This document shows positions 371-10,197 of a stretch of 64,000 bases of DNA, piece after piece. The stretch is from Octopus vulgaris. Taxonomy: Eukaryota. A program made the translations under genes and the position numbers. The DNA lies in NCBI GenBank assembly GCA_951406725.2, contig OX597834.1, positions 434,001 to 498,000 on the forward strand, read 5' to 3'. A model generated the notes under the pieces. It was not told the origin of the DNA and did no database searches. It was given only the letters and a program-made list of their open reading frames with translations. How positions within the stretch are numbered: position 1 is the stretch's first letter; each line of letters begins with the position of its first letter.

Positions 371-2926
371 GATGGTGGAACAATGTAGTTGACAGGGTCA
401 TTAGGGAAAAGAAACAGGCTTGGAAGGACTGAAAGAATGGTGGTAGCAGGGAATTGTATCAGACTGCCAGAAGGGAAGCTAGAAGACAGGTTTATTTAGC
501 CAGAGGGGAAGCAGATAAGGAAAAATTTGCCAATGTTCTGCGTCGTGATGACCAAAGACTTGAGGTATTTTGTGTTGCAAGACAGTGTGTGAGAGAGAAT
601 CCTGATGTGGTAGGAGAGAAATGTGTCCACATGGATGATGGCTCACTTGCATTTAATGAGGCTGAAAAGAGAGAGACTTGGAGAAGCCACTATGAAAGGT
701 TGCGAAATGAAGAGAATGAATGGGAGAAAGAGAGTCTGTACAATGTCAACCCAACAGAAGGACCAGCTATCCGAGTTGACAGTACCTTGGTAGATAAAGC
801 AATTAAGAGTATGAAGACAAGGAAAGCCCCAGGTCCATCAGGAATTACTGCAGGGATGCTTAAAATATCTGGTAGTGTCGGCTATAGCCTAGTCACCTGT
901 ATAGTTAAGCAGGTGATACACAAAGGAGTCATACCCAATGATTGGTGTAGCAGCATAATAGTCAACTGCTACAAAGGTAAAGGTGACGCTTTAGATACAA
1001 ATAATTACAGAGGTATCAAGCTGTTGGATCAGGTAATGAAGGTCACGTAGAGGGTCATAGCACAACTAATTAGGGAGAGAGTCAGCTTGGATGAGATGCA
1101 GTTTGGTTTCGTGCCAGGGAAAAGCACCACTGATGCCATATTTCTGGTAAGACAGCTGCAGGAGAAATACCTAGCCAAAGATAAACCTCTGTACCTGGCT
1201 TTCGTTGACATGGAGAAAGCCTTTGACAGGGTCCCATGATCCCTTATCTGGCGGTTAATGAGGAAAGTAGGAATAAACGAATGGTTAGTGAGAGCTGTGC
1301 AAGCTATGTACAGGGACACTGTCAGTAAGATGAGGGTTAGCAATGAGTACAGTGAAGAATTCCAGGTAGAGGTAGGGGCCCACCAAGGTTCAGTCCTCAG
1401 CCCCCTCTTATTTATCATAGTCCTCCAGGCAATAACAGAGGAATTCAAGACAGGATGCTCCTGGGAGCTCCTCTGCGTTGACAATCTTGCTCTAATTGCT
1501 GAATCACTATCAGAACTGGAGGAGAAGTTTCAGGTGTGGAAGCAAGGATTAGAATCGAAGGGCCTTAGAGTCAATCTAGCTAAAACCAAAGTCCTAATAA
1601 GTAGGAAGGAAGGCAAAACAGAAATCCCTTCAGGTCGATGGCCCTGCTCGATCTGTAGAAAAGGCGTAGGTAGAAACTCTATAAGATGTACCCAGTGTAA
1701 GCTATGGACACATAAGGGGTGCAGCAATATCAAAGGAAGGCTAACTGGGAAGATAGTTTTTGTATGTGGCAGATGCTCAGGAGAAATAAACACTGAAAGT
1801 GCGCAGAGAACAACTTCCGCCACATTCCAAGGAGAAAAACTAGAAGTAGTTGATAGCTTCTGTTACCTAGGTGACCAAGTCAGTAGCGGGGGAGGGTGCG
1901 CTGAAAGTGTAGCTGCTAGAATAAGAGTAGTCTGGACAAAATTCAGAGAGCTCTTACCTCTGCTGGTGACAAAAGGCCCCTTGCTCAGAGTAAAAGGTAG
2001 ACTGTATGACACGTGTACGAACAGCCATGCTACATGGCAGTGAAACATGGGCTGTGACTGCTGAGGACATGCGTAAGCTTGCAAGGAATGAAGCCAGTAT
2101 GATCAGATGGATGTGTAATGTCAGTGTGCATATTCGACAGAGTGTAAGTACCTTGAGAGAAAATTTGGACCTAAGAAGCATCAGATGTGGTGTGCAAGAG
2201 AGATGACTGTGCTGGTATGGTCATGTGGTGAGAATGGATGTAGATAGCTGAGTGAAAATGTGCCACACCCTAGTGCTTAAGGGAATCTGTGGAAGAAGTA
2301 GACCCAGGAAAACCTGGGATGAGGTGGTGAAGCATGACCTTCAAACATTGGGCCTCACCGAGGCAATGACTAGTGACCGGGACCTTTGGAAATATGCTGT
2401 GCTTGAGAAGACACAGCAAGCCCAAGTGAGACCATAACCTCGTGGCCTATGCCAGGGGTGTAACCAGCCCACTTATGCATACCTTTCCTTCACTGGACAC
2501 TAAACTCGGCTTGCATAGACTTGTTGAGGCAAGTGAAATCGAAATTGAAATCAAATTCAATGATTGGCATCCATGCCAGTGGAGCACTAAGAGTACCATA
2601 CGAGTATGATCCTTGCCAGAGCAACAAACTGGTTTCTATGCTGGTGGCATGTAAAAAGCACCATTCGAGTGTGATTGTTGGGAAAAAACATTTGAGCGAG
2701 GTCGTTGCCAGTGCCGCTGGACTGGCTCCTGTGCAGGTAGCACATAAAAGCACCCACTACACTCTCAGAGTGGTTGGTGCTAGGAAGGGCATCCAGCTGT
2801 GGAAACTCTGCCAGATTAGATTGGAACCTGGTGCAGCCATCTGGTTTGCCAGACCTCAGTCAAATCGTCCAACCCATGCTAGCATGGAAAGCAGATGTTA
2901 AACGATGATGAGGATGATGATGATGA
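371..2926 (+). mobile_element. 5'-truncated, decayed RTE-clade LINE (RT with internal PHD finger, structured 3' UTR, (GAT)n tail)
   Basis: Broken ORFs 454-1050, 1258-2043, 2006-2206 and 2252-2437 give non-LTR RT motifs KAPGPSG, NYRGIKLL, QFGF.PG.ST, AFVDMEKAFD, HQGSVLSPLLF, a degenerate YADD (CVDN), FCYLG and the RTE C-terminal RPRKTW. Several stops and frameshifts. Ends GTTAAAC(GAT)n. Confidence 0.93.
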
Positions 2927-8809: not shown

Positions 8810-9263
8810 AAGTGGATGGAAATTGTGTGAGCGGGAGACTCAGGAAGACGTTGGACAAAGTACTGAAGGCCAGTCTCTGGACACTGAACTTAAGATGATA
8901 AAGAACTGGGATACCCGGTGCCTTGCTGTTCTCCAAAATACTTGTCCACTGCAGCAGAATTGCTAATGCTCCTCTTCCAGCTGACATGGCTTTTGCCTTG
9001 CAAGTGTCCTATGCTGGTGCCACATAAAAATTAACCATGCCAGCACCATGTGCCACATAAGAAGCACCTGTGTTGGTGCCACATAAGATACCCTCTTCAC
9101 TCTGCCACATAAAATGCATCCAGTTCACTCGATAAAGTCGCTGGCGTTGGGAAGGACATCCAGCCATAGAAACCATGTGAACATGGTTCAACTCTGCATC
9201 TTCTCTGCTCTGGTCAAAACCATGCCAATATGGAAAATTGGCATTAAACAATGATGATGATGA

Positions 9264-9267
<4 letters not shown>
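8810..9267 (+). mobile_element. Old 3' fragment of the RTE family
   Basis: RLRKTLDKVLK-like C-terminus, repeated GTGCCACATAAAA units, GAAGGACATCCAGC motif and (GAT)n tail shared with 2440-2926. Confidence 0.65.
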
Positions 9268-9306
<39 letters not shown>

Positions 9307-9394
9307 TATGTAGGTCCCGGGTTGAGTCGGGGTTAACCACAGTAAATAAGGTACTCAATACATAGCAGAGTAAATTAATTTATTATATAGAAGG

Positions 9395-9445
9395 AGCTTC
9401 TACAGGACTAGAACTGTTTCATTCAAATGAAATCATCAGGAAGCT
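9395..9445 (-). ncRNA. Type I hammerhead ribozyme fold (minus-strand mirror copy)
   Basis: Reverse complement of the plus-strand HHR, with 1 difference in loop II, inside palindrome 9378-9509. Confidence 0.75.
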
Positions 9446-9492
9446 TCCTGATGATTTCTTTTGAATGAAACAGTTCTAGTCCTGTAGAAGCT
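9442..9492 (+). ncRNA. Type I hammerhead ribozyme fold (plus-strand copy in palindrome)
   Basis: Stem I AGCTTC/GAAGCT, core CTGATGA (9448-54), short stem II TTC/GAA, GAAA (9467-70), stem III ACAG/CTGT, cleavage triplet GTA (9484-86). Confidence 0.75.
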
Positions 9493-9503
9493 CCTTCTAT
9501 ATA

Positions 9504-9548
<45 letters not shown>

Positions 9549-10166
9549 TCACATCCCTGGTGGGTGTGGTAGATATGCTCTAACATGTCTACCACACCCA
9601 GCCATTCCATTTTCTCTCACTATGGCTTGCAACAGCCATCTTCTTATCTCTAAACTTCTATCTTTACATTCTTATGGACTATTCCTCTTAATTGCTTCTG
9701 TACCACATTGTTCCCTGTAGATAGGCCCCAATATATCTTCAAAAGCATTTACCTTTCTCTCTCTCTCTCTCTCTCCTTGACTGTCTCTCTGTCTTTCTAA
9801 CTCTCTCCTTGACTGTCTCTCTGTCTTTCTAACTCTCTCTCTCTCTCTATCTCTCTCCTGACTTTCTTTCCCTACAGGTGTAGCTAAGCATCCCCTCCAT
9901 AGTAAGGCAACTATCTCTGTCCCTTTATTAAACTCTAAACTCTCACCTGGCCCACAGTCACTTCCCTAATTCCACTCCTTCTCCTCTCAGTCGAGAGGTC
10001 TTCATCTGGAAAGCTACTTGGCAACCTTGCTGGTGCTGGCGCCACATAATAAGCACCCAGTCCACTTCTGTAAAGTGGTTGGCATCAGGAAGGACATCCA
10101 GCCATTGAAACCATGACAAAACAGACAAATGGAGCCTGGTCCAATCCATGCCAGCAGGGAGAAAGA

Positions 10167-10197
<31 letters not shown>

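What the first reader, a model, noticed from the sequence alone, without database searches (positions are those of the whole stretch)
9378..9509. Loop-less 132-bp palindrome encoding a complete hammerhead ribozyme on each strand
Seen: a palindrome centred on AAGCTT (9441-46) with one mismatch. The centre supplies the 5' strand of stem I for both ribozymes: AGCTTC-CTGATGA-TTTC(T/A)TTTGAAT-GAA-ACAG-TTCTAGTC-CTGT-A-GAAGCT. All core nucleotides and a GUA site are present; the weak point is U.U instead of G10.1-C11.1 at the base of stem II. It is flanked by (TA)n on both sides. Inference: the inversion was primed at the self-complementary stem I strand. Any read-through transcript carries its own antisense copy, so the ribozyme would be locked in a ~65-bp hairpin unless transcription or processing starts at the centre: a self-silenced, strand-symmetric ribozyme cassette.
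Basis: partly seen in the sequence, partly recalled or inferred. Interest (0 to 1): 0.8.

Follow-up and report, generated by a model that had tools for sequence, protein, structure and literature searches.

The report
Mirror-image stub of Penelope retroelement
This palindrome is one of hundreds of mirror-image stubs left by a Penelope-like jumping gene that carries a hammerhead ribozyme motif; the stubs mostly break at one spot that is likely the element's transcription start, which would explain how these elements make their inverted ends.

Summary
The 132-bp palindrome (9378-9509, one mismatch) and both hammerhead (HHR) motifs are real, but it is no special cassette. It is most of a 200-bp insertion (9310-9509) in (TA)n: a 5'-truncated, head-to-head inverted end of a ~5.2-kb Hydra-clade Penelope-like retroelement (PLE) with a 713-aa RT/GIY-YIG ORF. 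The genome holds 654 palindromes with this centre and 5,793 exact hits to an HHR 29-mer. Inverted PLE ends, tails and HHRs are published, and this scan noted similar stubs in two other genomes. The U·U at stem II is usual in Hydra HHRs. What I did not find in print: 49 of 99 tailed copies end within 10 nt of the HHR's first base and 0 of 99 at its cut site. In the parent a TATA box lies 29 nt upstream of that base, and 35 of 48 direct (TA)n joins carry an extra G there. This suggests that cDNAs run off the capped transcript start and are joined head-to-head, anew at each insertion. Cleavage and the start site are untested. New member of a known kind; interest 0.4.

The parts
9310..9509 (.). 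Whole insertion: 5'-truncated, head-to-head inverted end of a Hydra-clade Penelope-like element
   Evidence: Same boundaries in near-identical copies; parent element in L234, L243, L188
9378..9509 (.). 132-bp palindrome, 66-bp arms, T/T mismatch at 9428/9459 (a site that is polymorphic in the family)
9310..9377 (-). 68-nt PLE 'tail' (+24..+91 after the HHR cut), on one arm only; in the parent it runs on toward the ORF start
9395..9445 (-). Type I hammerhead motif of the long (tailed) arm; predicted cut between 9401 and 9400
   Evidence: layout as in the Hydra HHR table
9442..9492 (+). Type I hammerhead motif of the short arm; predicted cut after 9486
9442..9445 (.). AGCT shared by both arms: the junction, at the first bases of the HHR, inferred to be the parent's transcription start
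9493..9509 (+). End of the short arm at +23 after the cut, the commoner end point of inverted arms (28 of 61)
9266..9309 (.). (TA)n target, left; 9306-9309 matches the ATAT that follows the tail end in the parent (microhomology)
9510..9545 (.). (TA)n target, right; no target-site duplication can be discerned

Best explanation
The palindrome is a promoterless stub of a Hydra-clade Penelope-like retroelement inserted in (TA)n, likely made when two cDNAs ran off the capped 5' end of the element's RNA and were joined head-to-head through AGCT. Shown: the parent is HHR - tail - 713-aa RT/GIY-YIG ORF - microsatellite-rich 3' region - HHR; stubs end at the HHR's first base, not at its cut; each stub's two arms share the same alleles; only one arm has the tail. 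Inferred steps: (1) a TATA box 29 nt upstream starts a Pol II transcript at the A of AGCUUCC, the first base of stem I; (2) the PLE protein nicks both strands of (TA)n and primes reverse transcription at two internal sites, +23 and +91 after the HHR cut, on uncleaved RNA; (3) both cDNAs reach the RNA 5' end after about 68 and 136 nt, often adding a C opposite the cap; (4) their 3' ends anneal via AGCT or nearby microhomology and are filled in. The stub has lost the TATA box, and read-through RNA would fold into a hairpin that blocks both HHRs, so it is likely a dead end.
For: Family: 5,793 exact hits to an HHR 29-mer, 3,970 to a tail 25-mer, 654 palindromes with this centre; reversed-pattern controls 0. 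Parent with ORF between HHRs and Hydra motifs. Built anew per insertion: arms differ at 3 of 177 polymorphic positions against 83.7 expected for random pairing (54 pairs); 49 of the first 50 listed centres agree at core position 7, 26 of one allele and 23 of the other. Wall: of 99 tailed copies 49 end at -46..-36 (25 exactly at -45), 0 at -13..+3; rate per base 0.057 against 0.0014 upstream. TATAAAT or CATAAAT begins exactly 29 nt before -45 in 77 of 82 arms that keep upstream sequence, across divergent spacers. Extra base at direct (TA)n joins: G 35, C 8, A 4, T 1 of 48, against 5-7% G background (p 7e-31); the parent has T or C there. An extra G marks cap copying at L1 5' junctions (PMC11702581, passage). 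One tail per pair in 11 of 11 large inverted copies with both arms found; it lies on the ORF-bearing arm in 3 and on the inverted arm in 3 of 6 scorable. A PLE protein nicks and extends both strands, starts at two internal sites that define the tail and does not need HHR cleavage (PMC11167929).
Against: No 5'-end data: the start site is inferred from DNA. Reverse transcriptases can add untemplated C at uncapped ends too (own knowledge), and I did not test whether G is also enriched at other truncation points. The fourth control class (unexplained A at -46) was not searched. Short stubs cannot tell twin priming from snap-back of one cDNA. D. virilis Penelope has a TATA-less internal promoter and an intron ending at helix I (PMC2377424, PMC4209133), and the bases before -43 here read YAG, like a splice acceptor. 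The 99-copy sample comes from the first 70 Mb of one contig, needs an exact tail motif (which misses one subfamily) and holds a few duplicates; the 82 TATA arms are young, non-independent copies. Pfam gave RVT_1 only below cut-off (E 0.0033, a fragment) and no GIY-YIG hit for the parent ORF. Tail is 68 nt, not the published 30-40.
Confidence: 0.7

Rival explanations
1. Same PLE origin and same RNA start, but the second arm arises by snap-back: one cDNA folds on its own AGCT end, copies itself and joins the (TA)n at the AT-rich +13..+23 stretch.
For: Arms carry the same alleles. Perfect AGCT centres are common (654). Snap-back after full-length cDNA is documented for R2 proteins (PMC11371274, passages). 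The short arm's end is spread over +17..+27 (55 of 61).
Against: In L184, L188 and L237 the inverted arm carries the tail while the ORF-bearing arm ends without it; in L188 the forward part begins inside the tail, so the inverted arm cannot be a fold-back copy of it. +23 is also the 3' end of whole elements (L232, L235, L242), so it is a priming site in its own right.
Confidence: 0.2
2. The wall at the HHR's 5' edge is a splice acceptor or other processing site (YAG|CTTCC), or self-priming on an antisense RNA as proposed for rotifer PLEs, not a transcription start.
For: The D. virilis intron ends at helix I (PMC4209133). Polypyrimidine plus YAG precedes -43 in the subfamilies seen. Antisense self-priming was proposed for head-to-head PLE palindromes (PMC3846280).
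Against: Copies keep the AG and stop at -45 (25 of 99) rather than -43 (4 of 99), and no common upstream exon is joined there. Neither version accounts for the extra G at -46 or the fixed 29-nt TATA spacing.
Confidence: 0.07
3. The 200-bp palindrome is a self-propagating or selected unit (MITE-like, or a regulated strand-symmetric ribozyme cassette).
For: At least 40 near-identical 199-bp copies (40 scored of 449 candidates).
Against: That search selects for likeness to the query. In the tail-anchored sample only 8 of 99 have the perfect centre, and arm lengths run from tens of bases to kilobases. Several allele sets are each symmetric. No TATA box in the stub.
Confidence: 0.03

Closest known systems
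Hydra clade of C-terminal EN+ Penelope-like elements (Craig et al. 2021, PMC8557442), including Hydra-1_Obim and Penelope-13_HM
   Same: Single RT + C-terminal GIY-YIG ORF of about 700 aa with RW[KR], DKT, CxCx5C, CxxC and CxH motifs; (TA)n target; HHR with ctga[t/a]gat...tgaa and acag/ctgt stem III. Penelope-13_HM is listed with a 5'-truncated inverted copy and an HHR on both strands.
   Different: Different family from Hydra-1_Obim (other HHR sequence; by eye from the supplement). Unit about 5.2 kb owing to a microsatellite-rich 3' region, against <3 kb. Loop III has 8 nt. Tail 68 nt.
Inverted pLTR plus optional 'tail' of EN+ PLE insertions (Arkhipova et al. 2013, PMC3846280; Craig 2021)
   Same: Head-to-head inverted copy, palindrome at the junction, tail on one end, TATA and Inr-like motif in a pLTR.
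   Different: There the palindromes were read as self-priming on an antisense template. Here thousands of copies show a sharp end point at the HHR's first base, an extra G and no ends at the cut site.
PAc (Poseidon) internal initiation of reverse transcription (Frangieh et al. 2024, PMC11167929)
   Same: AT-rich target, two RT start sites bracketing the tail, uncleaved RNA as template.
   Different: PAc start sites lie in the ORF and lack homology to the target; here they lie before the ATG and show 2-4 nt of AT microhomology.
Minimal and dimer-acting PLE hammerheads (Cervera and de la Pena 2014, PMC4209133)
   Same: Type I HHR in the pLTR; palindromic loop III; pairs on opposite strands noted 100-700 bp apart.
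   Different: Here stem III has 4 bp and the two HHRs overlap by 4 bases; U.U replaces G10.1-C11.1.
L1 twin priming and cap-derived extra G (PMC11702581)
   Same: Two primed cDNAs joined by microhomology; extra G at full-length 5' junctions.
   Different: L1 twin priming inverts adjacent segments of the RNA; here both arms copy the same segment, which gives a palindrome.

Membership tests
Penelope-like element (EN+) | Single ORF with RT and GIY-YIG endonuclease | tested here: met
   713-aa ORF in L234, 718-aa frame in L235; YRDD RT motif and LVY..YIG motif align with 13 relatives, one of which (P0040) passes Pfam GIY-YIG. Direct Pfam support for the parent is weak: RVT_1 E 0.0033 below cut-off, no GIY-YIG. 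The window stub has no ORF.
Penelope-like element (EN+) | pLTR / partial tandem arrangement with HHR | tested here: met
   HHR on both sides of the ORF, 4.8-5.7 kb apart, in L232-L235 and L239-L243
Penelope-like element (EN+) | Inverted 5'-truncated copy and tail at one end | tested here: met
   61 of 78 short tailed copies have an adjacent inverted arm; one tail per pair in 11 of 11 large copies with both arms found; tail 68 nt rather than 30-40
Hydra clade | RWK motif, DKG changed to DKT | tested here: met
   IRWR (RWK in most aligned relatives) and DKT; definition
Hydra clade | CxCX5C linker; CxxC and CxH around E and N; no CCHH inside the EN core | tested here: met
   CNCPDKTTC, CDLC..E, N..CMH; no cysteine pair between the GIY and YIG parts
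Hydra clade | Insertion into (TA)n | tested here: met
   81 of 99 tails are followed by CATATAT and most others by similar AT or CA repeats
Hydra clade | Generally short (<3 kb) | tested here: not met
   Unit about 5.2 kb; the paper gives this as a tendency, and the excess is simple repeat
Hydra clade | RT phylogeny groups with reference Hydra elements | not tested
   No tree was built; the paper's reference proteins were only read
Type I hammerhead ribozyme | Core CUGANGA, GAAA, NUH with three helices | tested here: met
   in 241 arms variation above 10% falls only on position 7 and loops II and III
Type I hammerhead ribozyme | G10.1-C11.1 pair | tested here: not met
   U.U in 241 of 241 arms; the same state occurs in most listed Hydra HHRs
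Type I hammerhead ribozyme | Covariation in stems | tested here: inconclusive
   Stems 96-100% paired but invariant; no compensatory change among 241 arms
Type I hammerhead ribozyme | Rfam model match | tested here: not met
   No hammerhead family at gathering score or at E<=10
Type I hammerhead ribozyme | Mg2+-dependent self-cleavage | not testable with these tools
   needs an in vitro assay
MITE / non-LTR retrozyme | Fixed unit copied whole, or tandem HHR repeats of 150-400 bp | tested here: not met
   Junction and arm length vary; copies are dispersed and inverted. Unit size recalled from own knowledge.

The most novel reading that the evidence does not exclude
In this PLE family the hammerhead is the very 5' end of a TATA-driven, capped transcript, and the long-unexplained head-to-head inverted ends and one-sided tail of PLEs come from twin priming: two cDNAs started at two internal sites on uncleaved sense RNA run off the cap and are joined. 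Hundreds to thousands of genomic stubs record this at single-base resolution, and they show that ribozyme cleavage does not set the template end in vivo.
Probability: 0.55. Interest if true: 0.62.

Novelty: new member of a known kind. Interest (0 to 1): 0.4.

Why it matters
As an object it is ordinary: a dead-end piece of a known kind of retroelement. Its value lies in the population behind it. How PLEs form inverted ends and what their hammerheads do are called undefined in PMC8557442, and PMC3846280 proposed an antisense template. This young, high-copy family gives a base-level record that points to a sense, capped, uncleaved template. It also offers intact-looking 713-aa ORFs, so the model can be tested directly.

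Tried and rejected
Rfam: 0 gathering matches; 66 weak matches, mostly miRNA hairpin models, none a hammerhead. Folding the half units: z 0.09 and -0.49, no support beyond shuffles; only stem I is firm, stem III probability 0.3-0.5, stem II weak. First guess of a non-autonomous, ORF-less parent (L061-L066) was dropped when larger copies showed the ORF. The 781-aa PLE family found with PF01541 is not the parent: 1 of 30 loci held our arm, as a separate inverted fragment. HHR cleavage as the source of the 5' end: 0 of 99 ends at -13..+3 and 15 palindromes at the cut-site AGCT. Expression: no RNA holder listed; four runs guessed to be RNA were laid as contigs, which cannot show starts or strand, so no conclusion. 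One script found no HHR variants because of a pattern error, redone. The junction tally is skewed by de-duplication against selected loci and was not used for frequencies. Three other core-like motifs in the window (14477, 23707, 33669) lack evident stems by eye. Not-in-print searches; none showed a cap-G or twin-priming account for PLEs, but subscription papers are not covered and bioRxiv supplements are closed.

Full report
Observation. The palindrome spans 9378-9509 with 66-bp arms, no loop and one T/T mismatch at 9428/9459. It folds at -102.9 kcal/mol, z about -21, and is the only non-simple palindrome with arms of 20 nt or more in the window. Each strand carries a type I hammerhead layout: stem I AGCUUC/GAAGCU, CUGAUGA, U, a 3-4 bp stem II, U, GAA, stem III ACAG/CUGU with an 8-nt loop, and a GUA site (cut after 9486 on +, between 9401 and 9400 on -). 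Rfam does not detect it. In the full 132-mer neither stem I forms. The half unit folds no better than shuffles. Co-folding two + halves pairs the near-palindromic loop III between molecules, as expected of PLE hammerheads that act as dimers (PMC4209133, parts 1-2 of 4 read). Cleavage is untested. Positions below count from the cut; -45 is the A of AGCTTCC (9442 on +, 9445 on -).

It is a repeat. The window lies in a 2.8-Gb genome (G000:C21; host not given). A search with 9312-9510 scored 40 of 449 candidates, all 98-100% identical over nearly the whole length. The unit is 9310-9509 and sits in (TA)n at nearly all 30 loci read. An HHR 29-mer has 5,793 exact hits, a tail 25-mer 3,970 and the exact centre 654; reversed-pattern controls gave 0.

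The parent. Large inverted copies contain RT and endonuclease reading frames. A protein search scored 125 of 16,345 candidates, and 12 stretches were read in full. L234 has a 713-aa ORF starting 183 nt after -45, with an HHR before it and another 4.8 kb on; other copies give units of about 5.2 kb. The ORF has IRWR, DKT, YRDD, CNCPDKTTC, LVY..YIG, CDLC and CMH, and lacks the CCHH cysteines. These match the Hydra-clade definition (PMC8557442 section 11; alignment with 13 of 120 listed relatives at 40-43% identity). Direct Pfam support is weak, and no tree was built. It also lists Penelope-13_HM with an inverted 5'-truncated copy and an HHR on each strand. Hydra-1_Obim has a different HHR, so this is another family. 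The 68 bases 9310-9377 are the PLE tail: in the parent they run on as CCTACATATCC toward the ATG, while 81 of 99 insertions continue CATATAT.

Built anew at each insertion. Of the first 50 exact centres listed, 26 have one allele at core position 7 on both arms, 23 the other and 1 is mixed. In 54 arm pairs, arms differ at 3 of 177 polymorphic positions, against 83.7 expected if arms were drawn at random; at other positions they differ at 28 of 2,548. Junctions vary, and arms range from tens of bases to kilobases. The window's mismatch lies on a polymorphic site, but discordance is not enriched at such sites.

Where copies break. I took the first 100 tail-motif hits on C1 and recovered 99. The 5' end of the tailed arm lies at +4..+37 in 7, at -13..+3 (the cut) in 0, at -35..-14 in 14, at -46..-36 in 49 (25 exactly at -45), at -59..-47 in 3, at -199..-60 in 5, and beyond -200 in 21. 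The rate per base is 0.057 at the HHR's 5' edge against 0.0014 upstream. Of the 78 short copies 61 have an adjacent inverted arm, ending at +17..+27 in 55 (28 at +23); 8 of 99 have the perfect AGCT centre. The sample includes a few duplicates and misses a subfamily with a variant tail. A control: the second AGCT, beside the cut, is the centre of only 15 palindromes. Neither AGCT alone nor ribozyme cleavage sets the break.

Why there. In 77 of 82 arms that keep upstream sequence, TATAAAT or CATAAAT starts exactly 29 nt before -45, although the spacer differs between subfamilies (copies not independent). That is the usual TATA-to-start distance (own knowledge), and -46/-45 is pyrimidine-A. Where (AT)3 is followed by one base and then -45, the base is G in 35 of 48, C in 8, A in 4 and T in 1. 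Background G after ATATAT is 5-7% (p 7e-31). The 8 C cases all fit a short fold-back. Junction classes not explained by parent or arm number 263 for G, 37 for C and 34 for T (A class not searched). In 20 of the 263 read, 3 were plain (TA)n-G joins and 7 showed the extra base on both arms. An extra G marks cap copying at full-length L1 junctions (PMC11702581, passages). I infer that -45 is the capped transcription start. Untemplated C addition at an uncapped end is not excluded.

Mechanism. A PLE protein nicks and extends both strands of AT-rich DNA, starts at two internal sites that bracket the tail, and uses uncleaved RNA (PMC11167929, parts 1-2 of 4). Here +23 and +91 behave as such sites. 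All 11 large inverted copies with both arms found (of 12 examined) have one tail, on the ORF arm in 3 and on the inverted arm in 3 of 6 scorable. In L188 the inverted arm cannot be a fold-back of the forward part. I therefore favour two cDNAs that run off the RNA 5' end and anneal through AGCT. Snap-back of one cDNA, as seen for R2 (PMC11371274, passages), remains possible for short stubs. A splice acceptor at -43, or antisense self-priming (PMC3846280, passages), fits less well: ends keep the AG and carry the extra G. D. virilis Penelope uses a TATA-less promoter (PMC2377424, passages), so the promoter type is not general. The window stub has no TATA box and is likely inert.

Ribozyme conservation. 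Among 241 ungapped arms (both arms of palindromes and selected loci included; filter allowed 2 mismatches per motif), variation above 10% falls only on position 7 and loops II and III; stems are 96-100% paired with no compensatory change. This is consistent with an HHR but does not test it.

Known and new. Inverted PLE ends, junction palindromes, tails, pLTR hammerheads and (TA)n targeting are all published. The retrozyme preprint (10.64898/2026.07.22.740005, passages) deals with tandem units and added nothing on inversion. Earlier notes of this scan report like stubs in two other genomes (unchecked). I found no cap-G or twin-priming account for PLEs in the searches; subscription papers and bioRxiv supplements were out of reach. 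Verdict: new member of a known kind, interest 0.4; the mechanistic reading has probability about 0.55 and would deserve about 0.6.

Noticed in passing
G000 copies of the parent ORF (L213, L214, L216-L218, L223-L226; L232, L233, L239-L241): The same frame break at a C run between RT and endonuclease gives a 506-aa open frame in 9 of 126 matches; assembly homopolymer error, a broken subfamily or a frameshift site.
   Followed up: no
L065:4849-5502; L061:4292-4606: A second TA-flanked inverted repeat with 298-bp arms, 99% alike, lies inside or beside large copies at two loci; perhaps another PLE family's inverted end.
   Followed up: no
L073, L078, L192, L193, L197: A young, intact 781-aa RT + GIY-YIG PLE family with many near-identical copies; not the parent of this stub.
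   Followed up: partly
L187:2593-5868: A 1,092-aa open frame with RVT_1 over cut-off and a weak GIY-YIG match, nested between two inverted HHR arms 14.7 kb apart.
   Followed up: no
window 9561-9600: Small hairpin with 13-bp arms just right of the (TA)n tract; weak miRNA-model matches only.
   Followed up: no
window about 9000-9265 and 10030-10197: Two copies of another dispersed repeat ending in (GAT)n; the (TA)n that took the insertion follows the first copy's tail.
   Followed up: no
window 433-2043: Broken RT-like reading frames of a LINE-type element (family not tested).
   Followed up: no
L285 (G000:C1:65713300-65713730): A palindromic copy with the tail on both arms, one running on into the element, both arms ending at -45 with an extra base and a short filler between.
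   Followed up: partly
L013:1740-1790 (minus): One near-identical copy abuts about 90 nt of a different TA-flanked repeat end instead of (TA)n.
   Followed up: no
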